Origin: Myxococcota bacterium
GTDB taxonomy: Bacteria; Myxococcota_A; Bradymonadia; UBA4248
Reading direction: 5' to 3'
DNA: 64,000 bases
NCBI GenBank assembly: GCA_045643185.1
Contig: JAZUKH010000280.1
Span: forward strand, 1,448-65,447
Position numbers and translations under genes: made by a program. Of the stretch, positions 16,642 to 61,500 are shown one piece after another (the stretch's first letter is position 1; each line of letters starts with the position of its first letter). Below the pieces are notes generated by a model. It worked only from the letters and a program-made list of their open reading frames with translations. It was not told where the DNA came from and searched no databases.

Positions 16642-16644
16642 CGC

Positions 16645-26725: not shown

Positions 26726-28624
<1,899 letters not shown>

Positions 28625-38806: not shown

Positions 38807-41800
38807 CTAACTCAACGACTTAGCAGCTTTTTTCATCTTCTTGTCGCAGAGTTTCAGCACATCGAACATGGAGTTAACGGACTCGACTGCGCTTGGATCA
38901 AGCCCCTGAGCCGCGTTGACGATCTTAACGACCTGATCGGCGTATTGAATGACCGCGTCAAAACGTGTTGACCAAGTCTTGACGAAGTCTTCTGACGCCG
39001 AAGTGCCAGACGAGACGGCAGGATTGTTTTGCGCACTGGCGAGTAAGGAACGGAGAGATTCGATCTGAATCGAGTTCGAACTAAGCGAGGCGTTGGCTTC
39101 GTCACGTTCGGCACGAAGTTGCGCCGATTCGGCTTCGAGAGCCGCCACGCGTTCTTTCGCTTCATCGGCAGCGGCGCGAAGCGCTTCGATATCACCGGCC
39201 GCATTCTGCATTTCAGCAATCTCAGCGCGCAATGCAGAAATTTGGTTACCGGCATCAACCGCTTCGGCACGAAGCTGTTCGAGTTCCGCACCCGTGATCT
39301 CGTTGGCTGACTGAGCCATGTTCAACGAGCTTTGAACTAAGTTAAACTCCTCTTTCGTGGAATCAAGTTCCTCTTTCAAATTTTCAATTTGCGTTTCGAG
39401 GTAAACGTTCTCTTCACGCGCTTTTTCAAGTTCCTGCTTGAGTTCCGCCACTTCGGCACCAGAGTTGGTCGAGCTTTCACTGGCTTCGTTGAGCTTGGAA
39501 CGCAGATCTTGAATTTCGCCAAAGTGACGCGTTTTTTCATCGTTGGATGCTTCGAGTTCGTCGCGCAACGCAACAAGTTCCTGCTGAAGTTTGAGGTTTT
39601 CTGCACAAACTTCACCGAGCTTGTCGTTGAGCGCCATGATCTGGCCATCGAAATCACCTTTAGCTTCGTTCGAGGCATCAAGTTGAGCACGCAACTGAAC
39701 GATCTCTTCCTCATTCGCGTTGGACTCAGCACGCAATTCGTCGAGTTCCGCGTTTTGACGGCTCACACAAGCCTGATATTCATCGACTTGGTCTTGAAGA
39801 GCCTTCGCCTGGTTTTGACTTTCAACGAGTTGTTGCTGCAAGGCTTCGGCATTGGCAGCATTCGCAGCAATGACGTTTTGAGCTTCACCAAGTTGCTGCG
39901 TCAGACTGGCAACAGCCTCGTCCTGACCAGCGACCGAGTTTTGAGCCTGAGCACATTGAGCCTGAACGGTTTCGATGTCCAACTTGAGTTCGGATACCTG
40001 ATCACGCAGCTTTTCGAGTTCTTCATTGGCGGCACCAAGCTCCGATTCGGCTTTGACGCGCGCCACTTCAGCATTATCACATTGTTGAAGTGCAGATGCA
40101 GCCTGTTCGAGTGCCTCGGCGCGCTCAGCTTCAGCCTCAGCCTGAGCTTTTTGGGCACGTTCCAACAGGGCGCTCATTTCTTCCGCCGCACGTTCGGCCA
40201 TGGCCTGAGCTTTTTCGGCCTCCAAGCAATTCTTTTCGACATCGGCCATTTGTTCGCGCAGATCCGACATTTCAGCTTCAGCTGACATGCGCGCATCATC
40301 TGACTCGGTGATGCCGTCATGTACAGCGCGCAACTCATTTTCTGCAGCGACACGAGCTTCCTTGGCCACCGACAGACTTTCTTTCAACGTAGCGACTTCG
40401 TTTTCGAGAACGCCAACTTTTTCAAGAACGTCGTCGCGTTCAGCCATCGTCTTTTCTAGGCACACACCAAGTTTTTCAGCTTCGTGTTCGGCGGCTTTCA
40501 AACGAGTCCTAAGTTGCGTCACCTCAATTTCGAGAGCCGCCGGGTCAGGCACAGCGCCAAGATCAGGCGCACTCATTGTGTAATTGTTTTTCTGAGCATA
40601 GACGAATTGAGGTTCAGACTCTTCCTGAATGCAACTGATCTCGGAACGCGGATCATCGATACAAGTCAGATTGCTAACGGACTGAACGACAGCGGGGATT
40701 TCAACCGATTCACCATTAACTTCTGGATCGTACGCATCACGCGCATCGGCTTCGTTCAGCGCCATCGAGAGCTTATCGACCTGAACGATCTCAGATTCTG
40801 CAGGCACAGCAACGTCGGCAAGGAATTCACCAGGTTGGTCGAGCGCATCCTCAATGGGGCTGATGTCTTCGTCCAACTCATTTTCATCCATATCGTCGTC
40901 GTAGCTGCCAACCGACACGTCATTGAAAGCATCGAAGTCACCGTTCTGATCGTTAACCTCGTCAGACAATGCGGACTCATCAGCATCGTCAATGGCTTCG
41001 ACGATAACGGACTCTCCAACGCGATTGGCCAAGGCATCGCGGTCGTCATCAACAACACTTCGGGCATCGGTCACCGGCAAAGGTGTATCGTAACCAGCGT
41101 CCTGACCCTCGTCTGCCATCGGAACCGCGTCGTCTGCCATCGGAACCGCGTCATCTGCCATCGGAACCGCGTCGTCTGCCATCGGAACCGCGTCGTCTGC
41201 CATCGGAACTGCGTCGTCTGCCATCGGAACTGCGTCGTCTGCCATCGGAACTGCGTCGTCTTCCATCGGAACTGCGTCGTCGTAGTCATGATTTTGGTCA
41301 TACGAAGCTTCCGCCACGTCATTTTGAGGCGCATTCATCGGAGCGTAAGCATCGACGAACTCTTGTTCCTCGCGATAAGCCGGATTTTCGCTACCATGAT
41401 AGCTATTTTCAACGTGGTTATCGGCATAAAGCACATTTTCGGGCATGACCGAATTGCCATAAGCCTCCTCGTTGGCCAAATTAGCGCTGCTATCGTATTC
41501 ATGTGGCACAAAACCGCGTTGCGGATGAGGCACCATGCGACCGCCGCGATCACGCTGATTTCGGCGTGGTGCGGGCGGTACCATATTGTTCACGGGGTTG
41601 CCTCCAGCGGCATTAACGGCCGGCATCTGAGATGACGAAGGCGCCGACACACCACTTGCTTCCCCAGCACGACCGATTGGAACGCTACGCGTCACACGTC
41701 GCGCCGTCGGCGCGATCTGAGCCGACGGCCCAACAGAACTATCTCGTCCAAAGCGGGCACCACGAGCCCTGGCGCCATAACGATCACCAAGCGGCGCAGG

Positions 41801-43201
41801 CGCGATCGGCATTTCTTCATGATCGACCATCTCTTCGACCGGGCCATTGTTCACCGGTTCGTCAGCCTGAATCTGCCCTGACACAGGTTCAGACACCGGT
41901 GCAGACGCATCGACCGGTTCTTCCTGAAATTCTTCGTCGCCTTCCATGGGCGGCATGCTCGCCCCCTCGTTTGAGGCCACTGATTCATAAGGCCCCTCGT
42001 CATTCGTCGCCGCGTCGATCTCATCGAGGCTAAACGCCTGGGTCGGATTAGGCGACGATCCAAACGATTCCTCGCCTCTGTCGTCAAAGCGACGCTCTTC
42101 CAGATCCTGATCTTCAACAGGAGCCGGTTCATTCGCGGCTTCAAAGTTGGCCGGTGCCCCAAGCTCTTCCTGCGGCTCGAACGCCGGCATCGGCGCCTGT
42201 GCAGGCGCAGCCTGCGCCACACGTTCCATTTCCTGATCAAAAGAAGGCTGGTTGATCATCGTCGGACGGAACGTACCGTTACTGTTCGGAATGGGACGCA
42301 TGCCCACATTATTAGGTAACGACGGACTTGGAATTGACGGTTGTTGTGCGCCAATACCACTCATCGGGATCTTGGGCGCACCTGGCATAGACGCAAAACC
42401 AGCAGGTTTGTTCTGAGGCATGCCAACCATCGGCGAACCAGGCATACCAGGCATAGGACTATTCGGCATTGGCCCACGACCACTCGCCAGCGAGCCGCCT
42501 GGCATCTGACCAGGCATGCCAACCATCGGGCCACCAGGCATCTGACCCCCCATCGGGCCACCAGGCATCTGACCACCCATCGGACCACCAGGCATACCAC
42601 TCATCGGACCGCCAGGCATCTGACCGGGCATGCCAACCATCGGACCTTTGGGCGGCATCTGACCAGGCATGCCAACCATCGGACCGCCAGGCATCTGACC
42701 GGGCATACCAACCATCGGCTTGTTCTGAGGCATCTGACCAGGCATCTGACCGGGCATACCAACCATCGGCTTGTTCTGAGGCATCTGACCAGGCATGCCC
42801 ATCGGAGCGCCGGGCATCGGACGTATCATGCCCGGTTGAGGCGCGGCACCAGGTAGTTCAGAAAACTCCAAATTCGATTCACCACAACGCAATACGTCAC
42901 CAGGACGAATCTCAAAAGGTTCCATCGGCTTGATGCGCATATTGTTCACATAACAACCGTTCGAGCTGTTATTGTCGATAAAATAATACCGACCGTTCTG
43001 GAAAACGACTTTAGCGTGAAATCGTGAAACAGCCTTCGTCATGATCCTCAGCATGTTACCTTCGTTGCGACCTATGGTCACTTCCGGCTGCTGCGCATTG
43101 ACATCGGCATAAAAAGACTGAAAATTCTGATCCCTATAGACAATTCGCGCCACGATGCATCTCCTTAAACGGATTTTTAGGCCCTCCCTTAGGGCATACA
43201 T
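38807..43201 (-). CDS. giant FHA-domain protein with Pro/Gly/Met-rich repeats, (DDAVPMA)8 repeat and about 650-aa coiled-coil C-terminus
   Basis: N-terminal FHA ('TIGRNEGNMLRIM...FIDNNSSNGCYVNN'). 'MPGQMPGGPMVGMPGQ' repeats. Eight copies of 'DDAVPMA'. Heptad-rich SMC/myosin-like tail. Confidence 0.75.
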   Translation of the reverse strand: MYALREGLKIRLRRCIVARIVYRDQNFQSFYADVNAQQPEVTIGRNEGNMLRIMTKAVSRFHAKVVFQNGRYYFIDNNSSNGCYVNNMRIKPMEPFEIRPGDVLRCGESNLEFSELPGAAPQPGMIRPMPGAPMGMPGQMPQNKPMVGMPGQMPGQMPQNKPMVGMPGQMPGGPMVGMPGQMPPKGPMVGMPGQMPGGPMSGMPGGPMGGQMPGGPMGGQMPGGPMVGMPGQMPGGSLASGRGPMPNSPMPGMPGSPMVGMPQNKPAGFASMPGAPKIPMSGIGAQQPSIPSPSLPNNVGMRPIPNSNGTFRPTMINQPSFDQEMERVAQAAPAQAPMPAFEPQEELGAPANFEAANEPAPVEDQDLEERRFDDRGEESFGSSPNPTQAFSLDEIDAATNDEGPYESVASNEGASMPPMEGDEEFQEEPVDASAPVSEPVSGQIQADEPVNNGPVEEMVDHEEMPIAPAPLGDRYGARARGARFGRDSSVGPSAQIAPTARRVTRSVPIGRAGEASGVSAPSSSQMPAVNAAGGNPVNNMVPPAPRRNQRDRGGRMVPHPQRGFVPHEYDSSANLANEEAYGNSVMPENVLYADNHVENSYHGSENPAYREEQEFVDAYAPMNAPQNDVAEASYDQNHDYDDAVPMEDDAVPMADDAVPMADDAVPMADDAVPMADDAVPMADDAVPMADDAVPMADEGQDAGYDTPLPVTDARSVVDDDRDALANRVGESVIVEAIDDADESALSDEVNDQNGDFDAFNDVSVGSYDDDMDENELDEDISPIEDALDQPGEFLADVAVPAESEIVQVDKLSMALNEADARDAYDPEVNGESVEIPAVVQSVSNLTCIDDPRSEISCIQEESEPQFVYAQKNNYTMSAPDLGAVPDPAALEIEVTQLRTRLKAAEHEAEKLGVCLEKTMAERDDVLEKVGVLENEVATLKESLSVAKEARVAAENELRAVHDGITESDDARMSAEAEMSDLREQMADVEKNCLEAEKAQAMAERAAEEMSALLERAQKAQAEAEAERAEALEQAASALQQCDNAEVARVKAESELGAANEELEKLRDQVSELKLDIETVQAQCAQAQNSVAGQDEAVASLTQQLGEAQNVIAANAANAEALQQQLVESQNQAKALQDQVDEYQACVSRQNAELDELRAESNANEEEIVQLRAQLDASNEAKGDFDGQIMALNDKLGEVCAENLKLQQELVALRDELEASNDEKTRHFGEIQDLRSKLNEASESSTNSGAEVAELKQELEKAREENVYLETQIENLKEELDSTKEEFNLVQSSLNMAQSANEITGAELEQLRAEAVDAGNQISALRAEIAEMQNAAGDIEALRAAADEAKERVAALEAESAQLRAERDEANASLSSNSIQIESLRSLLASAQNNPAVSSGTSASEDFVKTWSTRFDAVIQYADQVVKIVNAAQGLDPSAVESVNSMFDVLKLCDKKMKKAAKSLS
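41108..41282. repeat. 21-bp tandem repeat (about 8.5 copies) encoding (DDAVPMA)n
   Basis: GTCTGCCATCGGAACCGCGTC units with minor variants (C/T, G/A) seen directly in the sequence. Confidence 0.85.
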
Positions 43202-48572: not shown

Positions 48573-48646
48573 CGGAGCATAGCGCAGCCTGGTAGCGCGC
48601 TTGCATGGGGTGCAAGAGGTCGCAGGTTCAAATCCTGTTGCTCCGA
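48573..48646 (+). tRNA. tRNA-Pro (anticodon GGG)
   Basis: Cloverleaf folds: acceptor CGGAGCA/TGCTCCG, D-arm GCGC-AGCCTGGTA-GCGC, anticodon arm CTTGC-ATGGGGT-GCAAG (G37), T-arm GCAGG-TTCAAAT-CCTGT, discriminator A. Confidence 0.85.
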
Positions 48647-48668: not shown

Positions 48669-48742
48669 CGGAGCATAGCGCAGCCTGGTAGCGCGCTTGC
48701 ATGGGGTGCAAGAGGTCGCAGGTTCAAATCCTGTTGCTCCGA
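48669..48742 (+). tRNA. tRNA-Pro (anticodon GGG), identical tandem copy
   Basis: Exact duplicate of the first tRNA, 22 bp downstream. Followed by the terminator GCCCATCGCAAGATGGGCTTTTTTTT at 48779-48806. Confidence 0.85.
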
Positions 48743-48910: not shown

Positions 48911-49645
48911 ATGAAAATCGGTATTTTTTCGGACATTCACAGCAACTTAAACGCCCTAAAGGTCGTTCTGGACTTCTACCGCGACAATCCATGCGATGAA
49001 TATCTCTGCCTGGGTGACGTGGTCGGCTATGGGCCTCAACCCGATGAATGCTGTGACCTCGTCAAGAATTTTGCACGCCTCACCATTCTCGGCAATCACG
49101 ACGCCGCCGTCTGCGGACGCATGAACTACGAGTATTACTACGATGCCGCTCGCAACGTTCTCGATTACCATGCCCGCATCATCTCGCCCGATAACATGAC
49201 CTGGCTCTCCAATCTGCCCTACAAATTCGATCATGAGGCCGGATTTACGATCTGCCACGGTTCCCCCATCAATCCCGAAGAATTCAACTACGTTTTTTAC
49301 CTCGAACAGGCCATCCAGCTCCTTCCCTTTTACAATGAGCTCGCGCCGGTCACCTTTATCGGTCATTCCCATCTGACCAAATCCTTTGCCCTCACCCCCA
49401 CCGAGGCAACCGATATCACCGGAAACACGCTGCATTTCGAGGATGATAAAAAATACTTCGTCACCGTCGGCTCCGTCGGCCAGCCGCGCGACTATGACAA
49501 CCGCGCCTGTTGCACCATTTATGACACGGAAACCAAGACGCTGACGTATTATCGTCTTAACTACGATATCGAAGACACCGTCAAAAAACTCTTCGCAACC
49601 GAGATCACCTATAACTTCGGAAAACGCCTGTATCTCGGCATATAA
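48911..49645 (+). CDS. metallophosphoesterase (calcineurin-like, YfcE-type)
   Basis: 'IGIFSDIHSNLNAL', 'LCLGDVVGYGP', 'ILGNHD' are MPP motifs I-III. Confidence 0.8.
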   Translation: MKIGIFSDIHSNLNALKVVLDFYRDNPCDEYLCLGDVVGYGPQPDECCDLVKNFARLTILGNHDAAVCGRMNYEYYYDAARNVLDYHARIISPDNMTWLSNLPYKFDHEAGFTICHGSPINPEEFNYVFYLEQAIQLLPFYNELAPVTFIGHSHLTKSFALTPTEATDITGNTLHFEDDKKYFVTVGSVGQPRDYDNRACCTIYDTETKTLTYYRLNYDIEDTVKKLFATEITYNFGKRLYLGI

Positions 49646-49677
49646 GTCGGTTTTTCGATACAAGCTCGTGGGATCGT

Positions 49678-49849
49678 GAGGGGGAAGTCTCCCCCTACGC
49701 GGCTATTTGGAATTTCTGTAGTAGACCACGCGTCAGAGACGTGTAGACCACGCGTCAGAGACGTGTAGACCACGCGTCAGAGACGTGTAGACCACGCGTC
49801 TCTACAGAAATACCAAATACGCCGCTACCCCTTCGCCTGGCAGGGGCCC
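49678..49849. repeat. MITE/REP-like element, copy D, carrying an internal 22-bp tandem array
   Basis: Same termini as A, B and C. Core is TTGGAATTTCTGTAG + (TAGACCACGCGTCAGAGACGTG)x3 + TAGACCACGCGTCTCTACAGAAATACCAA. Confidence 0.7.
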
Positions 49850-49854
49850 AGGAT

Positions 49855-49925
49855 GTTTTGTCTGGTCAGAAACTCAAAATCTCAGCCGTAGCGACGACGA
49901 AAACAAACAGGCTGAGATAATAACC
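49855..49925. ncRNA. conserved hairpin element (copy 1 of 2); candidate small RNA or regulatory stem-loop
   Basis: TTTGTCTGGTCAGAAACTCAAAATCTCAGCC-[22 nt]-GGCTGAGAT is about 80% identical to 52375-52445. The 9-bp stem is conserved. Confidence 0.3.
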
Positions 49926-50038
49926 TGTACTCTTAATGGTTGCCGTGCAAGCTTGCATGAAGGCGCGAAATGTGAGAAACTGGCGCGCCTAAGGATGGTT
50001 GAATCCAGCTAATATTGTTGCATGGATTTGGAGGAAAG

Positions 50039-51061
50039 ATGTTTTCGAGGAGATCAATAACTTCATTTCTGTTGAGCACCACACTGCTGATGGGACTCAG
50101 CGCCACAGCCCACGCCCAGGACATGGAAGACTTCAAGGCGCGCATGGCTCAAGCTTCAGAAATGACAAAGAGCAACATGAGTGAAGCCCTTCGTCTGTAC
50201 CTGGAGACGCGCATTCAATATGCCGGTCCCGAGATCGACTATTCGTTAGGCCGCACCTATCAGCGCTTGTACCAGTGCAGCCAAGCGCAACAATATTATA
50301 TTCAGGTCATGGTAAACTACGACCTTGGCCCCGATAACCCGATCTATTCGCGCGCCGTATCGGACTACGACACGATCGCTGACTGCGAAAGCTGGCAGCA
50401 GGTGACGATCAGCTGCACCAAAGCCTCCGATGATATCCTGTCGATCGACGACCAAAAAATGACCGAATGTTGGGATCGCCCGTATTCGCTGCCAGATGGC
50501 GAACATGAGATCAAACTGATCAGCGCAAAAGGTCCCGAAAAATCACTCAAATTCACCGCCAAAGCAGGTTCGGCACCTCAACACCTCGAAATTGCCTTCC
50601 CGCTCGCGGATGAGGAAGAGAAAACGCCTACCCTCGAACAGTGCGCAGCCATCATTCCACGCACCAAGATCGTCGAATACAAAGAGCGTTTCAACCCCTA
50701 TCTTTACTGGGGTCTGATCGCAGGCGGACTTGCCTTTGTTGCCGGCGGCGCGGGTTTTGGCGCCTGGGCGAATTCGGCACTCGTCGATGTTCAAAAATAT
50801 GACGACATGTACATCATCACCAACGATCTGAAAGCCAAATCCAAAGCCGATGATGCGCGTGACACCGTCAAAGTCGCCAACGCCCTCATGTATTCCGCCA
50901 TCGGCATCGGTGGTGCCGCAGCCATTACGGGCGCAACACTCGCCATTCTTAGCGCGATCAGCCCCAAAGTTGCTGTCGAAACCTATCAGCAAAACGACGT
51001 CAGCGCCTTCGTTGCCCCATCCAACGAAGGACTTATGCTCGGTCTGGGCATGACCTTCTAA
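50039..51061 (+). CDS. exported protein with PEGA-like domain and C-terminal TM helices
   Basis: GGAGGA RBS then ATG at 50039. Signal peptide '...LMGLSATAHA'. 'ILSIDDQKMTEC...PDGEHEIKL' is PEGA-like. Gly/Ala-rich hydrophobic C-terminal helices. Confidence 0.55.
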   Translation: MFSRRSITSFLLSTTLLMGLSATAHAQDMEDFKARMAQASEMTKSNMSEALRLYLETRIQYAGPEIDYSLGRTYQRLYQCSQAQQYYIQVMVNYDLGPDNPIYSRAVSDYDTIADCESWQQVTISCTKASDDILSIDDQKMTECWDRPYSLPDGEHEIKLISAKGPEKSLKFTAKAGSAPQHLEIAFPLADEEEKTPTLEQCAAIIPRTKIVEYKERFNPYLYWGLIAGGLAFVAGGAGFGAWANSALVDVQKYDDMYIITNDLKAKSKADDARDTVKVANALMYSAIGIGGAAAITGATLAILSAISPKVAVETYQQNDVSAFVAPSNEGLMLGLGMTF

Positions 51062-51333
51062 ACGCACTGGGGTCAAAATACCTCATTTTGCCCCGGCAAT
51101 CATGGCGGATGTTGCACTTGTCCCCATGACCAACTTGTCTCATTCATCAAGACAATGCCACAGACAAGTGAGCGCTCAGTGACAAACTCCCCATCCCATC
51201 AAATGGTCAGGAAAAATCGACGGACGTTGCTAAAAGCGATATACGCGGAACAAAATTTGCATTAAAACTTACAGTTTAGCGTGATTGTGTAACGATTACT
51301 TTACTGAATCAACACCACTAGAGAGGTAACAAC

Positions 51334-52191
51334 ATGCCAGAATGGAATCAGTTTTTCAAAAACATTGGTGACGTTTACCAGGGTCGTACGGCTGAAACCC
51401 GTCTTCAGGGCTGCATGATTGCCCGCGTTGTGGATAACGTCGACCCCTTTGATCAGCACCGCGTCCGCATCTCCTACCCGTCGTTGGCCGACCAATATAC
51501 CAAAGATACATCGTCCAACGGTGAAGATGCCAAGATCCAAAGCCCGTGGGTCCGTATCGCAAATTTGATGGCAGGCGATGATTTCGGTAGCCTCTGGCTC
51601 CCTGAAATCGATGACGAAGTCCTCGTCGCTTTCGAAGATGGTGATATGGCTCACCCCTACATCGTCGGAAGCCTCTGGAACGGTGGCGATAGACTCGTCC
51701 CCAAAACCATGACCTATACCCCCGACCAGATCGAAGTCGAACTCTCCAATAACGCTCAGGGCGGTAAAAATGATTATCGACTCATCCGATCCCGTATGGG
51801 CCACCACATCGCCTTCATCGATAAAGAAGGAAAAGGTGGTATCTCCCTCCGCTCCAAAAAATCCGCTGAACTCTACATCGATGACGAAGATGGTAAAGAA
51901 CGTATTCGCCTCTACGATAAAGACCAAAAACAATGGCTCGAAATCGATACCGTGAATAAGAAAATTACCCTCGAAACCGATACCGGCGATATCCTCATTA
52001 AGGCCGCTGAAAAAATTCGTCTCGAATGCAAAAACCTCGAAGTCGATGCCAGCGACTCCATCACCGTCGATGCCGGCACATCCATCAAAACGACCTGCCA
52101 GACCCTCAATGCCAAAGCAAGCTCCAGCATGGATGTTAACGGCGGTACCAAGATCAAGATGAGCGCTACGCGCATCGATCTTAACCCGTAA
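51334..52191 (+). CDS. phage baseplate assembly protein V / gp5-VgrG-like spike (Phage_base_V OB-fold plus beta-helix tail)
   Basis: 'RVVDNVDPFDQHRVRISYPSL...SPWVRIANLMAGDDFGSLWLPEIDDEVLVAFEDGDMAHPYIVGSLWNG' matches the gpV/gp5 N-domain. C-terminal 'KKITLETDTGDILIKAAEKIRLECKNLEVDA...' repetitive beta-strand region. Confidence 0.7.
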   Translation: MPEWNQFFKNIGDVYQGRTAETRLQGCMIARVVDNVDPFDQHRVRISYPSLADQYTKDTSSNGEDAKIQSPWVRIANLMAGDDFGSLWLPEIDDEVLVAFEDGDMAHPYIVGSLWNGGDRLVPKTMTYTPDQIEVELSNNAQGGKNDYRLIRSRMGHHIAFIDKEGKGGISLRSKKSAELYIDDEDGKERIRLYDKDQKQWLEIDTVNKKITLETDTGDILIKAAEKIRLECKNLEVDASDSITVDAGTSIKTTCQTLNAKASSSMDVNGGTKIKMSATRIDLNP

Positions 52192-52210
52192 TTCAATCCC
52201 AAACCTTCAA

Positions 52211-52240
52211 AAAGCCGCTCCCAAGAGCGGCTTTTTTTGT
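52211..52240 (+). terminator. rho-independent terminator of gpV-like gene
   Basis: AAAGCCGCTC-CCAAGA-GCGGCTTTTTTTGT. Confidence 0.7.
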
Positions 52241-52374
52241 GCTTAACGACACCGTTGAACGATCCAGACACGTTCCCGGCAAAAGATCTGACGACACTGC
52301 GCGACAACTATACGCATTCGTCAACGTTTTGCTACACGACTCGTTCAAAACAAGTTACGACTCACCCAAGAATG

Positions 52375-52445
52375 CTTTGTCTGGTCGAAAAAAATCTCAG
52401 CCGTAGCGAAGCCGAAGGCAAGCAGGCCGAGATTGGGGCGAGTGG
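52375..52445. ncRNA. conserved hairpin element (copy 2 of 2)
   Basis: CTTTGTCTGGTCGAAAAAAATCTCAGCC-[22 nt]-GGCCGAGAT. See copy 1 at 49855. Confidence 0.3.
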
Positions 52446-52508
52446 AGACGTGAGGGGCGAGCGTCTCCACGGGTTCGAAGCCGAAGACAAGTTCGCAAGC
52501 ACCCAAAA

Positions 52509-52584
52509 ACAACAAAGGCCGCTCTCGAAGAGCGGCCTTTGTTGTTCATGCCTCTATGATCTCGGGGCGCTAAGCCCCGGGATC
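52509..52584 (-). terminator. two stacked hairpins 3' of the giant gene
   Basis: AACAAAGGCCGCTCTCGAAGAGCGGCCTTTGTT and GATCTCGGGGCGCTAAGCCCCGGGATC. The second recurs 3' of the paralog (at about 63536-63565). Confidence 0.55.
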
Positions 52585-52595
52585 AGAATGACCGG

Positions 52596-55500
52596 TTAGT
52601 ACACGTTGAACTGACAGGATTCGTTGCAACTACTCACCTTGGGATCGCGGAAGTCGCAGGCTTCGTCGCCGTTCTTGATGCCATCGCCGCAGTAGGCCGC
52701 GCGCGTACAGTTGGTATTGCAACCGCCGTAAGCGCCCGTGTTGCCGTCCGTACCATTGTCACATTCTTCGCCAGCGTCGACATGACCGTCGCCGCAGAAG
52801 GCATTGAGCTTACACTTGGTCGAGCAACCGCCATAAGCGTCGTCATTGTTATTCGCGCCGTTATCGCAGGCTTCTTCGGAATCAAGCACACCGTCACCGC
52901 AGAAGTGTTCTAAGCCAGAACACGTAGCGTTACAACCGTTATAGCGGCCTGAGCCGTTGGCATCGCCATCGTCACAGACTTCTTTCGGACCATCGACCGT
53001 CGAATCGTCGTACTGAACGATGCCATCGCCGCAACGCGGACCAAGCGTACAGTCTGTACGGCAACCATTGTAAAGGGCGTTGCTGTTGTTTTCGCCATTA
53101 TCGCAGATCTCGGGATGATCAGCGTCACCGTTGAGTATGCCGTCACCGCAATAGGCGTTGAGCGTACAGCTTGTGGAGCAGCCGCCATAGAGGTTATCTT
53201 CGTTGGCTGCGCCCTTATCACAATATTCCGGATGATCTTCATCACCGTTGACACGACCGTCACCGCAGTAAGCCGCGAGTCGGCAGTTCTTCTTGCAGCC
53301 GCCATAAGCGTCGCTGAAGTTGCCCGTGCCGGGGTCGCAGGTCTCACCAGCTTCAGTGTCGATGTTTTTATCACCGCAGTAAGGTGCGCGCGTGCAGTCG
53401 GCGTTACAGGAGCCATAGACACCCGTATTGCCTTCCGTGCCGTAGTCGCATTCTTCCGGATGATCCGCATCACCGTTCTTCATGCCATCACCGCAGTAGG
53501 GGCCGAGCTGGCAAGTCGAACGACAGCCGTTGTAGGCACCCGTGTTGCCGTTAGGATCGTCGCAGACTTCATTGTCAGTATCGACAACGCCGTCGCCGCA
53601 GTAGGCCGCGAGTTGGCAATCCTTCGTGCAACCACCGTATTCGTTGTTGTTGTCATCGCCATAGTCGCAAGCTTCGGGGTGATCTGCGTCGCCATTCTTT
53701 ATGCCGTCACCGCAGAAGGCCGCGAGCGTGCAGTTGGCTTTACAACCGCCGTAGGCGCCCGTGTTACCAGCAGGATCGTCGCATTCTTCGTCGCCGTTCT
53801 TGATGCCGTCGCCGCAGAACTGGACGTAGCCGGAGCAATCGGCGTTGCAACCGTCGTAGACGTCGGCGCCATTGTGTTCGCCATCGTCACAGACTTCGTC
53901 GCCGTTCTTGATGCCGTCACCGCAGTAGGCCGCGCGCGTACAGTTGGCTTTGCAGCCGCCGTAGGCGCCCGTGTTACCAGCAGGATCGTCGCATTCTTCG
54001 TTCACCGGGTCGAGAACGCCATCACCACAGACATTGGCTTTCGTACAGTCGGACTTGCAGCCGTTGTACGAATTATCATTGAATTCAACGCCGAAGTCAC
54101 AGGCTTCGTCGCCATTCTTGATGCCATCGCCGCAGTAAGCCGCGAGCGTACAATTGGCTTTACAACCACCATAAGCGCCCGTGTTGCCAGCAGGATCGTC
54201 GCATTCTTCGTCGCCGTTCTTGATGCCGTCGCCGCAGAACTGGACGTAACCCGAGCAATCCGAGTTACAACCGTTGTAAATGTCCTGACCATTCGTCGCG
54301 CCGTCATCACAGACTTCGGAGCCATTACGAATGCCGTCACCGCAGTAAGCCGCGAGCGTACAGTTGGCTTTGCAACCACCGTAGGCACCCGTGTTGCCTG
54401 CCGTGCCGTCATCACAAGCTTCGTCGCCGTTCTTGATGCCGTCGCCGCAGAACTGAACGTAACCCGAGCAATCCGAGTTACAACCATTATAGATATTCGA
54501 ACCGTTCGAAGCGCCATCATCACAGACTTCGGAACCATTACGGATGCCGTCGCCGCAGCGAGGTCCGAGCACGCAAGCTTTGGTGCAGCCATTGTACGCG
54601 GTGTTGCTGTTCTCAGCGCCGTTATCGCAGTCTTCGTCGCCATTCTTGGTGCCATCGCCGCAATAAGGACCGAGCTTACAAGTCGCATCGCAACCATCGT
54701 ATTCGCCCTTATTGTTTGCCGTGCCGTCGTCACACTGTTCGGAGCCGTTCTTGATGCCGTCGCCGCAGTAGGCGTTCAACATACAGAGCGTGGAGCAACC
54801 GCCATAGACGCCGTCAACGTTCGAGGAACCAAGGTCGCACTCTTCGTCGCCGTTCTTGTCGCCATCACCGCAGTACGGGCCAAGCTGGCAAGTAGACGTA
54901 CAACCATCGTAAGCACCCGTGTTGTTTGCCGTGCCGTTATCGCAGACTTCGTGACCTTCATCGACGATACCATCACCGCAATACGAAGCGAGCGTACAAT
55001 CTTGGTTGCAACCGTTGTATTCGCCCTTATTGTTTGACGTGCCGTTATCACACTGTTCGTTGCCGTTCTTGGTGCCGTCACCGCAGAAGGCGTTGAGTTT
55101 GCACTTGGTCGAGCAACCACCGTAGACACCGTCTTCGTTGGCTTTGCCATAGTCGCAGTCTTCGCCAGCGTCTTTGACGCCGTCGCCGCAACGCGGTGCG
55201 AACGTACAGTCAGCATTACAACCGTTATACGAACCGTCGTTGACGCCATCGTCACACTGTTCCTTGCCGTTCACCTTGCCGTCGCCGCAATACAACGCTT
55301 TGCCCGAGCAATCGGCATTACAGCTGTTGTCGCCATAAGCATCGTTGCTGTTACGAGCGCCGTTATCGCAGACTTCGTGGCCAGCATCGATGTTGCCATC
55401 GCCGCAACGCGGAGCCTTGCGACAAGTCGTCAAGCAACCGTCAGAGCCATAAGCTGAGTCGCTGTTCGACGCGCCGTTATCGCATTGTTCTTTGCCATTG

Positions 55501-58500
55501 ACCTTGCCGTCGCCGCAACGCGGAGCCAACTTACAAGCGTCGGTACAAGCACCTTCGCCATAAGCGGACGCCTTGTTATCCGCGCCGTTATCGCACTGCT
55601 CGCCGTTAAGCGAATCGATCTCGCCATCACCGCAGAACGGAGCGAGTTCACACTTGTCGTTACAAAGACCTTTACCGTAGTTATCGGCTTTGTTCTGGTC
55701 TTTACCATCGTCGCAAGCTTCACCCTTGCTTTCCGCAACTTCGCCATCACCGCAAACCGCGTACTGGCAATTGGACGTACAGCTATCGCCGTTGGCCGCA
55801 CCATCATCGCATTGTTCACCCATCGCCGTGTCGACGACGCCGTCGCCACAGACCATGTATTTACAAGTCGTCTGGTTGCAGTTAACCGGCCAGGAACCGT
55901 CTGCATTCTTATCGCACTGTTCGCCAGCATCAACGCTACCGTTGCCGCACAACGTGCCGCCACCTGTACAGGTCGATTTGCCCGTCTTGAGGAAGCCGTC
56001 CAACGTCAACTTATACATTGAACCCTGGTCACAACGTTCCGTCTGGAAGAAGTGAAGTTCATAGATACCGTCTTCATAGATGTCATATCTCGGATCGCAG
56101 ACCATATCGTCGAACGTTTCACCATCGAGCGTACAACGCTGATTCGAAAGCGTGTTATCAGCCTGATCACCACCGCGCAAACCACCAAGGTCGACGAACT
56201 GCTTACGGTTAATGAACGCCCAAACGTCGTCATCACCCGTGAAATCGAGTTTTTCGCCACCCTTGTACTGGAAGAACGTATGGAGTTCTGACGAGAAGTT
56301 ACCGAACGTACGAACAGAACCTCTACCTTCTTTGCCATCATCATAACCAACTTTTTGAAGCGGATAGAAGTGCGCCTGAATATAGTCATGATCTTCTACG
56401 ATGGCCATATCCGAACCGTCGTAATTCTTGGCACAGACTCTCGTTCCATTGATCGTCTTACACGGATTGGCAGCATCGAACACGTATTTCGCACCCGAAT
56501 CGCCCTCTCTGAACAAGCGGAGCGTCGTGTCGAATTTCTTGTTCAAGCCTGAAAGCTCGCGATACCAATAGTAGAACGTACCCGGACAGGTAACCTGGTC
56601 GGTAATATAGTATTGGCCGTTATCCTTCGCACCGCATGCTTTCGAACCCCAGTTCGAAACGAGAACCGGTTTGCCATCGGCATCAAGTTCGTTCTCGACC
56701 ATACCGGTACAACCTTTGTTGACGGTCCAGTCGATGTTGCCATTGTGTGTTGCAGGCTTGTTACGCTGATAGTACGGACCACAACCAAAATCGGGGAAGC
56801 CGTAACCAACGTACCAATCGTTGTACGACATATCGATGGCGTTCGAATACGTGTAGGGGATCTCGTCGGAATACGTGAAATTCACTGTTCTTATATAAGT
56901 ATTCGATGAGTAACACGTAGTCCCCTTTGTATTGCAACATTGAGCACCATTCGAAGTCTTAAAGTTCTGATAATTTGTTTTTCTACACTCATAACACTGA
57001 TCATTATATTCATTACCAGTGCTGCATGTACGCTTTGAATAGCACTTACCGCCATTCTCGTACCCGCTACATGACCTGTTCGAATAGCACGTACCATCAA
57101 TGTAATAGCCACTACAGGTCAACAAGTTCGTACAAGCATTACTGACGGAATAGAACTCACCCAACAAGGCAGTGGTCATCCAACCATCGCCAGTACCGTG
57201 ACTCTGAGTTGCGCGGAAGTCGTAGTACGAAATGTCGATATCGACGTATGGATCGGACTTCATGCTTGCGAAGTCGGTGCAATCGAAGCCGGGTTCGACT
57301 TCACACTGGCTTGAGCAACCGTCACCCGAGACCATGTTACCATCGTCGCACGCTTCGGCCGGAACGAATTTGCCATTGGGGCATTCTTCTTTCGTCGCAG
57401 CGGTCGTGCCGCCTTCACACATGACGAGGCCGTTGTTATCACGTTTCGGGATCATCCACAGCGTGATGCCATCGCCACATTTCGGCGTATACGTCGCTTT
57501 GCCCGTGTCATCGTCGATGTATTCATCGAACATGACTTCGCGTTTGCAACTGGGCGAACAACCGTCGTTAGGATAGTGGTTACCGTCATCGCATTCTTCA
57601 CCGATGTCGAGGATACCGTCACGGCATTTACCTTTAACGGCATGACCGTCTTCATCGACGTGATAATTGCTTTCGAGTTTACACGCATCGCAGCCGTCGT
57701 TGGCAGCATCGTTACCATCGTCGCATTCCTCGGCGAGTTGGTATTTGACGCCATCCAATTCAACGACTTTGTCGATAACGCCGTTACCGCAGTAGACGGA
57801 GCTGTCGATTTCAGCAGCAGGTGAACATTCACCGCCGTTTTCAGGACAAGCGTAGTGTGTTTCGATCTCGCAATTTTCGTTGCAGCCATCGCCACTCGTC
57901 GTATTGCCATCGTCACAGGCTTCGCCGTACTGAACGATGCCGTCACCGCAGTAACCCTTGGTGGCACTGCACACGGTTTTTTCGTTCATTGTATAGGTAC
58001 AAGCGTAACCCTCTTCACGCTGGCAACGAGCCGAACAGCCATCGCCGTCGTTGTTGTTACCATCGTCACAGGCTTCACCCCAAGCGCGGATACCGTCGCC
58101 GCAGGCCGCCGCAACGCAGTGTTCGCCTTCATTCGGGCAGATGTAACCCGGTTCGATCTGGCCTTCGTAACAGCCATCGCCTTTATCCGTGTTGTGATCA
58201 TCGCATTTTTCGAAGTCATGCTGAACGATGCCATCGCCGTAGAGGTCGGAGATCGGACGACACCAAACGTTTTCAGCGTCATCGCGAGAGTCAGCCGTAC
58301 AAGCCTGACCGTTCGTCGGAATCGTGCCGGATGCGCAGCAGTATTCGACGGGGCAGCGTTTTGTGCTGGCGGAATAACCCTGGCACATATAGCCGGAGAC
58401 AGGCTGACAAGCGTTGGTGCACATCGTCGTTCCGTCGACCGTAGGATCGCAAACTTCGCTTGCATCACGCTGGTTGTTACCGCAAGCATCTCGGTAACAT

Positions 58501-61500
58501 CCCGAGTCATCACACATGTACTTGGGCTGAATGATGCAGTTCTTGCAGCCATCGATATCGGCGCCAAAGTCGCATTCTTCATCGCCATTGATGACGCCAT
58601 CGCCGCAACGATCCGCGAGCGTACAATCCGATTTACAACCGCCGTAGGCGCCCGTGTTGTAAGCTTCGCCATCGTCACAAACTTCGGGATGCGACGCATC
58701 ACCGTTCACGATGCCATCGCCGCAGTAAGCATTCTTGATGCACTTGCTGGAGCAGCCATCATAGACGCCATCCGCATTGGCAGAACCGTTATCACATTCT
58801 TCGCCTTCCGTCGTGTCGACGTTGCCGTCGCCGCAGTAGGACGCAAGCGTACAATCCGATTTACAACCGCCATAAAGGCCGTCATTGTAACCATCATCAC
58901 ACGCTTCCTTGCCCTCTTCGACGATGCCATCGCCGCAGAAGCGGTCGATCTTACAAGCGCTGTTGCACTTGTTGTAGCCGCCGACGTTCTGGTCAGCGTC
59001 ATCGCATTGTTCGCCGGCATTGGTATCGGTATGACCATCGCCGCAACGGGGTCCAAGCTGACAACTGGTCGTACAGCCGCCATAGACGGTGTCATTGTTA
59101 TTGACGCCGTTATCACAGACTTCAGAACCGTTGACTTTGCCATCACCGCAATAGGTGTTGGGACCGGAGCATTTAGCATTACAAGAATCGGCGCCATAAC
59201 CAGTGCCGTTCGACGCGCCGTTATCACAGACTTCGTCGCCATTCTTAATGCCGTCACCGCACCACGGGCCCCACTTGCATTCGCTGGTGCAGCTCGAGTG
59301 TTCGGCGAGTTTGTAAAGACCGGTGTTCTTGGCCGAACCAAAGTCGCAATCTTCGCCCGGGTCGACGTTGCCGTCACCGCACGAAGCGTTCACACCGGAG
59401 CAGTTGGCGTTACAGGAATCAGCGCCGTAACCGGTGCCGTTCGACGCGCCGTTATCGCAGACTTCGCTGCCGTTCTTGACGCCATCGCCGCAATACGGAC
59501 CGATTTCGCACTTCGTCGTGCAGGAACCTTCGCCGTAAGCTGCGTCGCTGTTAGCCGAGCCGTTATCACAGGCTTCGCTGCCATTTTTAACGCCGTCGCC
59601 GCAACGCGGACCAAGTTCGCAACTGGTCGTGCAGCCGTTGTAGGCGCTGTCATTGTTGGCCGAGCCGTTATCACAGGCTTCATCGCCATTCTGAGTGCCG
59701 TCACCGCACCAGCTGTTAGCCCCAGAACACGTCGCGTTACACGAATCCAGACCGTAGCCGGAACCGTTACGCGCGCCGTTATCACATTTTTCGCTGGCAT
59801 CCACGACGCCGTCGCCGCACTTGTGAGCAACGCCCGAACAACTCGCGTTACAGCTGTCGTCGCCGTAAGCATCGTCGCTGTTAGCCGCGCCGTTATCGCA
59901 AACTTCACCAGCCGACGCGTCGACGTTACCGTCGCCGCAGTAGCGAGCTACGCCCGAACAATCCGCTTTGCAGCTGTCGAGACCGTAGGCCGTGTCGCTG
60001 TTCAAACGCACGCCGTTATCGCAGACTTCGCCCTGATCGGCCTGAACCACGCCGTCACCGCAATAGAACGCCAAACCTGAACACGTCGAGTTACAGCTAT
60101 CCTCGCCATAGGCGGTGTCGCTGTTTTTCGCACCGTTATCACATTTTTCTTTGCCTGCATCGGCTTTGTCATCACCGCAGTGCGGACCGAGCTGACACTT
60201 GGTCGTGCAGCCATTGTAAGCCGTATCGCTGTTCGATTTACCGTTATCACAGACTTCCGGATGATCGGCATCGCCATTCACTTCACCGTCGCCGCAATAC
60301 GCAGCCTTCGTGCAGTCCGCATTGCAGCCGCCATAGGCACCCGTGTTCTTGTCTTTGCCAAGGTCGCATTCTTCGCGGCCATTGACGATGCCGTCACCGC
60401 AATACGCCGAGACGGTGCAATCCGAATTACAACCGGTGCCGTCCGCAACGTATTTGCCGTTATTACCACGCGTGCCAAGGTCGCACGCTTCATTGGCGTC
60501 GACCACGCCGTCACCGCAATACGAGGCGAGCTGACATTCGACCGTGCAACCGCCATAGGCGCCCGTGTTGAGCGAAGCACCAGAAGCGTCGACGCCAAGG
60601 TCGCATTTTTCGTAAGGCGCCGTGACGACGCCATCACCGCAGTACGCAACGCGTTGACAATGCGTGTCGCAACCGTCGATGCCATAAGCGCGGTCGTTGT
60701 TGCCCGGACCGTTATCACAGGCTTCGTTGTACGCCGCGTCGACCACGCCGTCGCCGCATTTGGGCGTCGCCGTACAGTCGGGATTACACGTGCCATACGC
60801 GCCCGTGTTGCCTGCATCGCCAAGGTCGCATTCTTCACCCGAACCCGGATCGACATAACCGTTACCGCAACGACCAGGCAGCGTACATGCCGGCGTACAC
60901 GTGCCATATTCACCCGTGTTGCCGTCTTCGCCGAGGTCGCATTCTTCTTTCTGATCGGCATCGACTTTGCCGTCGCCGCAACGTGAAGACAACGTACAGT
61001 CGGTGTTACACGTGCCATCAGTGCCCGAGTTGTTTTCTTTGCCAAGGTCGCATTCTTCGGCGCCGTTCTGTTCACCGTCGCCGCAGTAAGGCGCGACCGT
61101 ACAGTCGGCGTTACAACCCGTACCATCGGCCACATACGCGCCGTTGTTCTTGGCTGAACCGTTATCGCAGAGTTCGTCGCCATTGACCTCACCGTCGCCG
61201 CAGTAAAATTCTGCGCCAGAGCAGTCATCTTTACAACCGGCATCAGAACCGTCACCGACCTTGCTGTAACCGCCCACGTTGAGCGAAGCAAGCGTTGACT
61301 TATCAACGCCAAGGTCGCACTTTTCATTGCCGTTCAAAATACCGTCACCGCAGTATTCAGCGAGCGATCGGCAGTCGGCATTACAATGCCCGTACGTGCC
61401 CGGACCACCCGTCAATTCGCCAGTTCCCGGGTTAAGGTAACCTTCGTCGCAGACTTCAGCGCCCGGCGTCACAACACCGTCACCGCAGAACGGCATTTTC

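What the first reader, a model, noticed from the sequence alone, without database searches (positions are those of the whole stretch)
51334..52191. Orphan phage gpV/gp5-like baseplate spike gene without other tail genes
A 285-aa protein with a clear Phage_base_V OB-fold N-domain and a beta-helical C-terminus stands alone, with its own terminator. It lies between a PEGA-domain exported protein and the giant Cys-rich lipoprotein, with no sheath, tube or baseplate genes in the window. It could be a spike for a distantly encoded eCIS/T6SS/tailocin or a domesticated remnant.
Basis: partly seen in the sequence, partly recalled or inferred. Interest (0 to 1): 0.5.

Follow-up and report, generated by a model that had tools for sequence, protein, structure and literature searches.

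The report
Orphan injection-spike gene in Bradymonadia-like bacterium
This intact, strongly conserved gene encodes the needle-tip ("spike") protein of a phage-tail-like injection machine, but in this bacterial lineage it has left the machine's gene cluster and instead sits next to a membrane-protein gene behind its own sigma-54-type promoter, so it either arms a machine encoded elsewhere or has taken on a new job.

Summary
ORF 51334-52191(+) encodes a 285-aa protein with a gp5/gpV OB-fold (Pfam PF04717, E=7e-20) followed by a beta-helix that runs to the C-terminus. There is no fused effector. The gene has a good RBS and a strong terminator, and no sheath, tube, hub, baseplate or PAAR gene lies in the 64 kb.

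It corresponds to the C-terminal half of eCIS/T6SS spikes; the gp27-like hub half is absent. Its 29-37 % relatives sit almost always inside eCIS clusters, right after CIS_tube and Phage_GPD hub genes. All Myxococcota/Bradymonadia homologues form one separate clade with no CIS gene within 10 kb, surrounded by housekeeping genes. That clade is absent from viral contigs and under purifying selection.

Partner genes vary within the clade:
- DUF2169 or PAAR in early branches.
- A specific Zn-ribbon SAM-methyltransferase-like gene in several branches.
- In the window's subclade, an upstream exported two-TM protein ("UP").

The window's subclade also has an invariant sigma-54-type -24/-12 element 71-88 nt upstream of the spike ATG.

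It is not a remnant. My best reading (about 0.45) is a regulated spike that works in trans with a contractile machine encoded elsewhere. The main rival (about 0.3) is a spike repurposed for a role without such a machine. Whole-genome searches, which these tools cannot do, would decide.

The parts
51334..52191 (+). Spike gene: 285 aa. N-terminal roughly 25-aa clade-specific segment, gp5/gpV OB-fold (residues 29-115, with a low-confidence 13-aa insertion near residues 53-66), linker, then beta-helix to the C-terminal 'IDLNP'.
   Evidence: ORF. PF04717 E=7e-20. AF2 pLDDT 85.6. Foldseek to CIS, T6SS, pyocin and P2 spikes. Clade alignment. dN/dS 0.06-0.3.
51320..51326 (+). Shine-Dalgarno-like AGAGAGG, 7 nt upstream of the ATG.
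   Evidence: Read directly from the sequence. A purine-rich GGGAA/GAGG block sits at the same place in relatives.
51247..51260 (+). Sigma-54-type -24/-12 promoter element GGAAC-N5-TTGC (CGGAACAAAATTTGCA), 88 nt before the ATG.
   Evidence: GG and TTGC are invariant in an otherwise 35 %-identical intergenic alignment. The element sits at -71 to -88 in 19 subclade loci and in none of 21 outside it. It is not enriched in the window as a bare pattern. Function is inferred.
52209..52236 (+). Intrinsic terminator of the spike gene.
   Evidence: 12-bp stem with 6 GC pairs plus a T-run. Folds at -18.2 kcal/mol, z=-4.96.
50039..51061 (+). UP: a conserved partner gene encoding a 340-aa exported membrane protein. 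It has a signal peptide, a TPR-like helical domain, a Cys-containing beta-sandwich, two TM helices forming a long hairpin, and a short C-tail ending in F. The start is taken at ATG 50039 behind GGAGG; the mechanical ORF starts at TTG 50015.
   Evidence: Homologous protein directly upstream of the spike in every subclade locus with enough flank. The family has 31 proteins, no Pfam, NCBIfam or PADLOC match. AF2 pLDDT 78. Weak fold hits only.
51067..51096 (+). Hairpin immediately after the UP stop codon. A short GGGGNC-loop-GNCCYC hairpin sits at the same place in relatives. Possible UP terminator or RNA element.
   Evidence: Alignment. Folds at -14.6 kcal/mol, z=-3.3 in the window; no T-run in the window, but U-run versions occur in L011.

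Best explanation
The gene encodes a functional central-spike protein of the contractile-injection-system kind. It has an OB-fold followed by a beta-helix; by analogy with solved spikes these would assemble as a trimer with the three helices intertwined into a needle. It is the 'gp5 half' of a split spike and lacks the gp27-like hub half.

Its ancestors were the gpV-like genes that lie next to a Phage_GPD hub gene in eCIS clusters. In an ancestor of a Myxococcota/Bradymonadia clade the gene left the cluster and became a chromosomally fixed, vertically inherited small module.

In this organism the module is UP (an exported two-TM protein with its own transcript) followed by the spike gene. The spike gene has its own sigma-54/enhancer-binding-protein-type promoter, RBS and terminator.

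Most likely mechanism (inferred): on an activating signal the spike is made and trimerises. It is mounted through its OB-fold on a gp27-like hub of a contractile machine (eCIS or T6SS) encoded elsewhere in the genome. There it forms the membrane-piercing tip, possibly capped by a PAAR protein.

Shown: the fold, the descent from eCIS spikes, the orphan and vertically inherited state, purifying selection, the partner genes, and the conserved promoter motif.

Inferred: trimerisation, sigma-54 dependence, use on a remote machine, and any physical link to UP.
For: Fold and family:
- PF04717 at E=7e-20.
- Partial VgrG-type hits confined to the C-terminal OB plus helix part.
- PDB sequence hits to Streptomyces CIS, T6SS VgrG, Anabaena All3320, AlgoCIS, Pvc8 and Afp8 spikes.
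- Foldseek to 7aef_q at E=1e-13 and TMq 0.64, to 7b5h_AJ, and to R2 pyocin and P2 gpV spikes.

Descent from eCIS spikes:
- About 60 of 72 homologues at 29-37 % identity lie directly after CIS_tube and GPD hub genes, with sheath and gp19 tube genes upstream.

Spike-type partners persist in orphan relatives:
- DUF2169 lies directly downstream in clade members L016, L021 and L125. L063 and L187, which carry tandem gpV paralogues and group outside the main orphan clade, have it too.
- A PAAR_motif protein lies downstream in clade member L047 and in L148 and L174/175. L148 and L174 did not group with the main orphan clade in the NJ tree.

Functional and maintained:
- More than 80 intact homologues of 261-287 aa.
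- dN/dS 0.06-0.3.
- Divergence of the same order as ClpX. ClpX is 65-70 % identical to Bradymonadales/'Proteobacteria' MAG proteins, against 57-67 % for the spike.

Regulated:
- A conserved -24/-12 element.

Machines exist in the phylum:
- Some Myxococcota carry eCIS clusters (PMC11937823).
- Sigma-54/EBP control of satellite vgrG/hcp genes in T6SS organisms is from my own knowledge.
Against: - No hub, tube, sheath, baseplate or PAAR gene lies in 64 kb here or within 10 kb in more than 30 related orphan loci.
- eCIS clusters seen here are self-contained and carry their own spike next to the hub. I know of no precedent for a trans-encoded eCIS spike (own knowledge).
- The protein lacks the gp27-like half that every canonical T6SS VgrG has.
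- Cultured Bradymonabacteria are reported to lack T6SS (PMC11509652).
- The module behaves like a core gene: single copy, vertically inherited, with conserved non-CIS partners (UP and the methyltransferase-like protein). It does not behave like a shuffled weapon island.
- In the window's subclade no PAAR, adaptor or effector gene accompanies it.
Confidence: 0.45

Rival explanations
1. Exapted spike. In the Bradymonadia-like subclade the spike no longer belongs to a contractile machine. It works in a small stand-alone system with the UP membrane protein and, ancestrally, the Zn-ribbon methyltransferase-like protein. It could act as an envelope-associated needle or anchor, or as an assembly or signalling factor switched on by a sigma-54 activator.
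For: - The UP-spike pairing survives complete turnover of flanking genes: Metallophos/tRNA here, cytochrome c assembly genes in L004, ftsK in L006, rpoBC in L192.
- The UP family exists only with this spike.
- The methyltransferase-like family is found only beside these spikes among about 190 loci. It forms UP-spike-MTase triplets in L004, L192 and L193.
- PAAR and DUF2169 are absent from the subclade.
- The gene shows core-gene-like conservation.
- Cultured Bradymonabacteria reportedly lack T6SS.
- No CIS gene appears in any of more than 30 orphan loci.
Against: - I know of no example of a gp5/gpV-type spike working without a tube and sheath.
- The spike has no signal peptide, while most of UP is periplasmic.
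- UP and the spike are separate transcripts: a hairpin follows UP and the sigma-54 element precedes only the spike.
- The methyltransferase-like gene is missing here.
- Absence of CIS genes in the rest of the genome is untested.
Confidence: 0.3
2. Auxiliary T6SS/eCIS cargo island. The spike is one of several interchangeable tips, and the neighbouring gene (UP here, the methyltransferase-like protein elsewhere) is its cargo effector or an immunity protein.
For: - Orphan vgrG-adaptor-effector islands are common in T6SS organisms (own knowledge).
- DUF2169 and PAAR neighbours occur in relatives.
- UP is an exported membrane protein, as many immunity proteins are.
Against: - Partners are conserved over deep divergence rather than polymorphic.
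- UP lies upstream on its own transcript, and no toxin domain was found.
- The gene is single copy per locus, with no duplicated spike or effector arrays in the subclade.
- There is no gp27-like domain.
Confidence: 0.12
3. Dead remnant of a prophage, tailocin or eCIS cluster, or a mis-called ORF.
For: It stands alone without other tail genes.
Against: - Intact, with near-constant length in more than 80 homologues.
- dN/dS 0.06-0.3.
- Conserved RBS, promoter element and terminator.
- No clade member in IMG/VR viral contigs.
- GC content matches the surroundings.
- Synteny with UP is conserved across genera.
Confidence: 0.03

Closest known systems
Split eCIS spike: a gpV-like (Phage_base_V) gene next to a Phage_GPD hub gene in eCIS clusters of cyanobacteria, haloarchaea, Methanosarcinales, Acidobacteriota, Paenibacillus and others. 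Fused versions solved as AlgoCIS Alg8 (7aef_q) and Anabaena All3320 (7b5h_AJ).
   Same: These are the closest sequence relatives outside the clade (29-37 % identity). They share the OB-fold plus beta-helix architecture and give the best structural matches.
   Different: - Those genes sit inside complete sheath/tube/baseplate clusters directly after the hub gene and are usually followed by PAAR and gp25-like genes. This one has none of these within 64 kb.
- This protein carries extra segments: an N-terminal roughly 25 aa, a 13-aa OB insertion, about 20 aa after the OB-fold, and extra helix rungs.
- It has different neighbours (UP) and a sigma-54-type promoter.
T6SS VgrG (TssI) and orphan vgrG islands with DUF2169 or PAAR partners
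   Same: The gp5-like OB-fold and beta-helix align with VgrG C-terminal halves. Relatives in the same clade carry DUF2169 or PAAR genes downstream, as vgrG islands do.
   Different: It lacks the whole gp27-like N-terminal half. All VgrG models score far below their cut-offs (60 vs 121.8; 51.9 vs 186; 101 vs 275). No T6SS gene is nearby, and cultured Bradymonabacteria are reported to lack T6SS.
Phage P2 gpV / R2-pyocin spike PA0616 (short OB plus beta-helix spikes with a separate gpD hub)
   Same: The same domain logic: a short spike with the hub encoded separately. Foldseek E is 1e-6 to 1e-4.
   Different: TIGR01644 scores 20.4 against a cut-off of 46.75. Sequence identity is low (11-14 %). 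There is no phage or tailocin context. Whether an apex metal site exists was not tested.
Francisella VgrG (minimal beta-helix-only T6SS spike)
   Same: It is a precedent for a truncated spike working with separately encoded partners. Residues 204-279 weakly match NF041249 (E=4.7e-5).
   Different: The score is below cut-off (23.4 vs 100). Francisella VgrG lacks the OB-fold and lies within its T6SS island.

Membership tests
Phage_base_V / gp5 OB-fold domain family (PF04717) | Significant match to the OB-fold profile above the gathering score | tested here: met
   71.6 bits against 23.8, E=7e-20, residues 29-115 covering profile positions 2-75 of 75.
CIS central spike (gp5/gpV/Cis8-type) | OB-fold followed by a C-terminal beta-helix | tested here: met
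   AF2 model with pLDDT 85.6. Foldseek alignment of about 250 columns to AlgoCIS and Anabaena CIS spikes, probability 1.0.
CIS central spike (gp5/gpV/Cis8-type) | Homotrimer with an intertwined helix | not testable with these tools
   Only a monomer could be modelled. Strands in residues 215-285 are not called by DSSP in the monomer, as expected for an intertwined helix.
eCIS locus component (Cis8) | Encoded within a cluster with sheath, tube, hub, gp25-like and baseplate genes | tested here: not met
   No such gene in the 64-kb window or within 10 kb in more than 30 clade loci. The rest of the genome could not be searched.
T6SS VgrG/TssI (TIGR01646, TIGR03361, NF033848) | Full-length gp27-like plus gp5-like architecture reaching the curated cut-off | tested here: not met
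   Scores of 60, 51.9 and 101 bits against cut-offs of 121.8, 186 and 275. Only model positions from about 344 or 368 onward are matched.
Phage P2 gpV subfamily (TIGR01644) | Score above the curated cut-off | tested here: not met
   20.4 bits against 46.75.
Spike-PAAR tip complex | A PAAR or DUF4280 gene associated with the spike | tested here: not met
   No PAAR-family hit in the window with two custom PAAR HMMs and the L009 DUF4280 protein. PAAR is present next to relatives L047, L148 and L174.
Sigma-54-dependent promoter | GG at -24 and GC at -12 separated by 10 nt, close to TGGCAC-N5-TTGC | tested here: met
   CGGAACAAAATTTGCA at 51246-51261 (core element 51247-51260). GG and TTGC are invariant in 19 subclade loci at -71 to -88, and L004 has CGGCAC-N5-TTGCT.
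Sigma-54-dependent promoter | Transcription depends on RpoN and an enhancer-binding protein | not testable with these tools
   No expression data. No rpoN or EBP gene was identified in the window. An EBP gene lies 3.7 kb from the spike in L193, which may be coincidence.
PEGA domain protein (claim about the upstream neighbour) | Match to Pfam PEGA (PF08308) | tested here: not met
   No Pfam family at E<=0.01. Only weak fold similarity of the beta-sandwich to transthyretin-like or carboxypeptidase-regulatory domains, E>=3e-3.

The most novel reading that the evidence does not exclude
A contractile-machine-independent 'spike module'. In a Bradymonadia-like lineage that lacks T6SS and eCIS, a domesticated gp5/gpV-type needle protein has been kept for a very long time. 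It is switched on by a sigma-54 activator and works with a lineage-specific inner-membrane protein (UP) and, ancestrally, a Zn-ribbon methyltransferase-like protein. It would be a new kind of envelope or predation-related device. This would be the first case of a phage-tail spike exapted away from any tail.
Probability: 0.28. Interest if true: 0.8.

Novelty: new variant of a known kind. Interest (0 to 1): 0.5.

Why it matters
Spike proteins are normally studied as parts of T6SS, eCIS, tailocin or phage clusters. Here one spike lineage has been inherited vertically across a whole clade of largely uncultured, partly gut- and rumen-associated Myxococcota. It is detached from any such cluster and has its own regulatory signal and its own dedicated partner genes.

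If it serves a remote machine, it shows that eCIS- or T6SS-type weapons in these putative predators can be armed in trans and under sigma-54 control. If no machine exists, it is a clean example of a phage-tail part repurposed for a new cellular function. It would then be a candidate component of the still unknown contact-dependent killing or kin-recognition apparatus of Bradymonabacteria, which are reported to lack T6SS.

Either way the module (UP, sigma-54 element, spike, methyltransferase-like protein) is a defined, testable unit.

Tried and rejected
- **Fused C-terminal effector.** Rejected: the model and fold matches show helix to the end.
- **Prophage or tailocin remnant.** Rejected: no phage genes in the window. 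The best viral-contig relative is 32 % identical and sits in a CIS/phage-like context.
- **Pseudogene.** Rejected by dN/dS and length conservation.
- **Anti-phage defence system.** No PADLOC match for the spike, UP or the L004 methyltransferase-like protein. The L007 protein gave only a weak generic methyltransferase hit to mad2.
- **Riboswitch or known RNA in the long UP-spike spacer.** Rfam gave only sub-threshold chance hits.
- **Giant DUF4215 protein as a partner.** It is not a neighbour in any related locus.
- **UP and the spike as one operon.** Judged unlikely: a hairpin follows UP, and the sigma-54 element lies only upstream of the spike.
- **Sigma-70 promoter scan.** It found nothing in 49600-52700.
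- **AFDB50 fold search for UP.** The library was unavailable.
- **Literature linking Bradymonadales to contractile injection systems, or describing orphan Phage_base_V genes.** Nothing relevant found.
- **NJ trees.** These are rough. The placement of the PAAR+MTase loci L148 and L174 outside the main orphan clade is not reliable either way.
Full report
**1. The observation**

The ORF at 51334-52191(+) is real: 285 aa with an ATG start. An AGAGAGG Shine-Dalgarno lies 7 nt upstream of the ATG. A strong intrinsic terminator follows at 52209-52236, with a 12-bp stem and a T-run, folding at -18.2 kcal/mol with z=-5.

Pfam gives Phage_base_V (PF04717) for residues 29-115 at E=7e-20. NCBIfam VgrG-type models match only with their C-terminal OB plus helix portions and stay far below their cut-offs. 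The P2 gpV model is also below its cut-off. PHROGs gives only weak baseplate hits.

An AlphaFold2 model built on 62 homologues has mean pLDDT 85.6. Foldseek against the PDB ranks the AlgoCIS spike first (7aef_q, E=1e-13, TMq 0.64, rmsd 3.4 Å over 253 columns). The Anabaena CIS spike All3320, the Streptomyces CIS spike, T6SS VgrGs, Afp8/Pvc8, the R2-pyocin spike and P2 gpV follow. Sequence search of the PDB agrees.

The targets are about 580-640 aa and the match covers their C-terminal halves. This protein is therefore the 'gp5 half' (OB-fold plus beta-helix) without the gp27-like hub half. The helix runs to the C-terminal IDLNP, so there is no fused effector.

**2. The window**

Pfam scans of about 45 ORFs found only chromosomal housekeeping and regulatory genes:
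- rplS, trmD, rimM, clpX, era, der and signal peptidase.
- A Ser/Thr kinase and FHA proteins.
- A restriction-modification methylase with an SNF2 helicase.
- Two tRNA-Pro genes.
- The giant DUF4215 Cys-rich repeat protein.

None hits the window. GC content at the gene matches its surroundings. 'Orphan in this window' is confirmed.

ClpX of the window is 65-70 % identical to ClpX of MAGs labelled Proteobacteria or Bradymonadales, and 56-58 % identical to Bradymonadia MAGs. The organism is therefore a Bradymonadia-like member of Myxococcota. Related contigs come from roe-deer and goat omasum MAGs and other metagenome-assembled genomes.

**3. Relatives and their contexts**

The protein database holds about 85 homologues at 40-67 % identity, nearly all 261-287 aa. 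More distant ones at 28-36 % carry source names such as 'Rhs element Vgr protein' or 'phage baseplate assembly protein V'.

I fetched loci by exact look-up. I also scanned species-representative genomes, metagenomes and viral contigs. Every locus was annotated with phmmer or HMM searches.

Almost all homologues at 29-37 % identity lie inside canonical eCIS clusters. They come from cyanobacteria, haloarchaea, Methanosarcinales, Acidobacteriota, Paenibacillus and others. They sit immediately after CIS_tube and a Phage_GPD hub gene, with sheath and gp19 tube genes upstream and PAAR, gp25-like and baseplate genes downstream. L009 is a fully Pfam-annotated example.

Every Myxococcota/Bradymonadia homologue, by contrast, has no CIS gene within 10 kb. 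In NJ trees these form one clade separate from the cluster-embedded spikes. No clade member occurs in IMG/VR.

**4. Partner genes inside the orphan clade**

- **Early branches.** A DUF2169 gene lies directly downstream in L016, L021 and L125; this family is known as a VgrG adaptor (own knowledge). L063 and L187 also have it, but they carry tandem gpV paralogues and group outside the main orphan clade. A PAAR_motif protein lies downstream in L047.
- **Methyltransferase-like partner.** A specific protein with an N-terminal CxxC...CxxC Zn-ribbon and a class-I SAM methyltransferase fold lies 3-92 bp downstream in L004/5, L007/8, L015, L192, L193 and L194.
  - It follows a PAAR gene in L148 and L174/175.
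  - Its HMM hits nothing else in about 190 loci.
  - Its glycine-rich SAM motif is canonical (GCGPG) in some members and degenerate (GSAVG, GAALG, GCGLA) in others.
- **The window's subclade** (at least about 46 % identity). A 304-362-aa protein (UP) always lies directly upstream on the same strand. This holds in the window, L001-6, L010-13, L112, L113, L115, L118-120, L192 and L193. The outer flanks are completely different in each branch.
- L004, L192 and L193 carry the full triplet UP-spike-MTase. The host-associated group including the window has lost the methyltransferase-like gene from the locus, and there is none in the window.

**5. UP**

UP occupies window 50039-51061, with its ATG behind GGAGG. 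It has no Pfam, NCBIfam or PADLOC match, and its family of 31 proteins is confined to this clade.

The AF2 model (pLDDT 78) shows these elements in order:
- a signal-peptide helix;
- a TPR-like helical domain (residues 29-112);
- a beta-sandwich (120-186);
- a disordered linker;
- a long helical hairpin containing two hydrophobic TM segments (220-307);
- a low-confidence tail ending in an invariant F.

Three Cys residues are invariant across the family and a fourth is nearly so. Foldseek finds only weak partial similarity to TPR proteins and to transthyretin-like or carboxypeptidase-regulatory domains.

**6. Regulation**

The 272-bp UP-spike spacer aligns poorly among ten loci (35 % mean column identity), except for two elements.

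- **Hairpin after UP.** A hairpin follows the UP stop codon directly. In the window it lies at 51067-51096 and folds at -14.6 kcal/mol, z=-3.3. It has no T-run here, but U-run versions occur in relatives.
- **Sigma-54-type element.** An invariant GG...TTGC block has sigma-54 -24/-12 spacing. In the window it reads CGGAACAAAATTTGCA at 51246-51261 (core element 51247-51260).
  - The pattern NGG[A/C]A[C/T]-N5-TTGC occurs 71-88 nt upstream of the spike ATG in 19 subclade loci. L004 has the near-consensus CGGCACTGAACTTGCT.
  - It occurs in none of 21 loci outside the subclade and not upstream of UP.
  - As a bare pattern it is not enriched in the window: 5 matches against 3.3 expected.
  - The evidence is therefore positional conservation, and sigma-54 dependence is an inference.
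- No sigma-70-like promoter was found. No known RNA family reached threshold.

UP and the spike are thus probably separate transcripts.

**7. Selection**

Pairwise Nei-Gojobori estimates among eight clade genes give dN/dS of 0.06-0.30 with dS saturated at 1.3 or above. The spike is about as conserved between these genomes (57-67 %) as ClpX is (65-70 %). It is a maintained, functional gene.

**8. Interpretation**

Shown:
- The protein is a bona fide CIS-type spike (gp5 half).
- It descends from split eCIS spikes.
- It is fixed in the chromosome of a Myxococcota clade, away from CIS clusters.
- It has lineage-specific partners and a conserved promoter element.

Which machine, if any, it serves cannot be settled here, because only flanks of up to 10 kb and this one contig are available.

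My best reading (about 0.45) is a regulated, trans-encoded spike for a contractile machine elsewhere in the genome. The arguments for it:
- All spike features are retained.
- Relatives keep PAAR or DUF2169 partners.
- Some Myxococcota carry eCIS (PMC11937823).
- Sigma-54 control of satellite spike genes has precedent in T6SS organisms (own knowledge).

The main rival (about 0.3) is exaptation into a machine-independent module with UP and, ancestrally, the methyltransferase-like protein. The arguments for it:
- Inheritance looks like that of a core gene.
- The partners are dedicated non-CIS proteins.
- PAAR and adaptors have been lost from the subclade.
- The gp27-like half is missing.
- Cultured Bradymonabacteria are reported to lack T6SS (PMC11509652) and to rely on T4P and a T3SS-like apparatus (PMC7460792).

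A conventional polymorphic cargo island (about 0.12) fits poorly with the deep conservation of the partners. A dead remnant (about 0.03) is effectively excluded.

**9. Novelty**

The protein kind is known, and orphan vgrG genes are commonplace. This case differs in several ways:
- It is a gp27-less spike that derives from eCIS-type spikes.
- It is vertically inherited across a clade.
- It carries a sigma-54-type promoter.
- It has clade-specific partners (UP and the Zn-ribbon methyltransferase-like protein).
- It lies in a lineage where no contractile machine has been reported.

I rate it a new variant of a known kind with moderate interest (0.5). A genome-wide census could raise that if the machine is truly absent.

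Noticed in passing
L174:9781-14358; L148:1998-5321; L175: Operon-like row of gpV-like spike, PAAR_motif protein and Zn-ribbon SAM-methyltransferase-like protein. In L174 a 2OG-Fe(II) oxygenase and a HAD-like protein follow. No CIS structural gene lies within 10 kb. The methyltransferase-like family occurs only next to these spikes.
   Followed up: partly
L004:10918-11967, L192:10825-11850, L193:4608-5525 versus L007, L194, L174: The spike-linked methyltransferase-like proteins have a canonical SAM motif I (GCGPG) in some members. Others have degenerate versions (GCGLA, GSAVG, GAALG). This suggests drift towards a non-catalytic role before the gene was lost from the locus in the window's subclade.
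   Followed up: partly
L046:472-2622; L063:9345-13201; L187:9959-13252+; L161, L173, L176, L190: High-GC metagenomic or MAG loci carry two or three tandem paralogous gpV-like genes of 340-390 aa. In L063 and L187 a DUF2169 gene follows them. No CIS genes are nearby.
   Followed up: no
window 52596-62966 (-): A 3456-aa protein with a lipoprotein-type N-terminus (…LLGC) and dozens of DUF4215 (PF13948) Cys-rich 'CGDG' repeats. It is convergent with the spike gene but is not a neighbour of the spike in any related locus.
   Followed up: partly
window 48573-48646 and 48669-48742 (+): Two tandem tRNA-Pro(GGG) genes 22 nt apart, with identical Rfam scores.
   Followed up: no
window 13-4417 (+): An Eco57I/MmeI-like N6-adenine methylase with a TaqI_C specificity domain, followed by an overlapping SNF2/ResIII helicase. 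This looks like a restriction-modification or BREX-like defence pair at the contig edge.
   Followed up: no
window 38807-43201 (-) and 29975-30955 (-): A 1464-aa protein with an N-terminal FHA domain and a long C-terminal coiled coil, and a separate protein with two FHA domains. A Ser/Thr kinase lies at 21101-22894. This is typical myxobacterial signalling content.
   Followed up: no
window 14470-18144 (+), 23641-26532 (-), 26639-28663 (+), 5575-9705: Several large ORFs (723, 499, 963, 674, 424, 372 and 439 aa) have no Pfam match at the threshold used. The four largest also have no NCBIfam match.
   Followed up: partly
window 18151-19557 (-): An unusual fusion of an N-terminal NUDIX hydrolase domain with a radical-SAM domain in one 468-aa ORF.
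   Followed up: no
L193:8275-9939 (-): A sigma-54 activator (Sigma54_activat) gene lies 3.7 kb downstream of the UP-spike-MTase triplet in this Myxococcota MAG. It could be the cognate enhancer-binding protein or a coincidence.
   Followed up: no
window 51067-51096; L011:4445-4460 and equivalents: A short hairpin (GGGGNC-loop-GNCCYC) is conserved immediately after the UP stop codon. Both stem arms differ between loci, which would fit compensatory change, but this was not counted formally. It is extended in the window and has no T-run there.
   Followed up: partly
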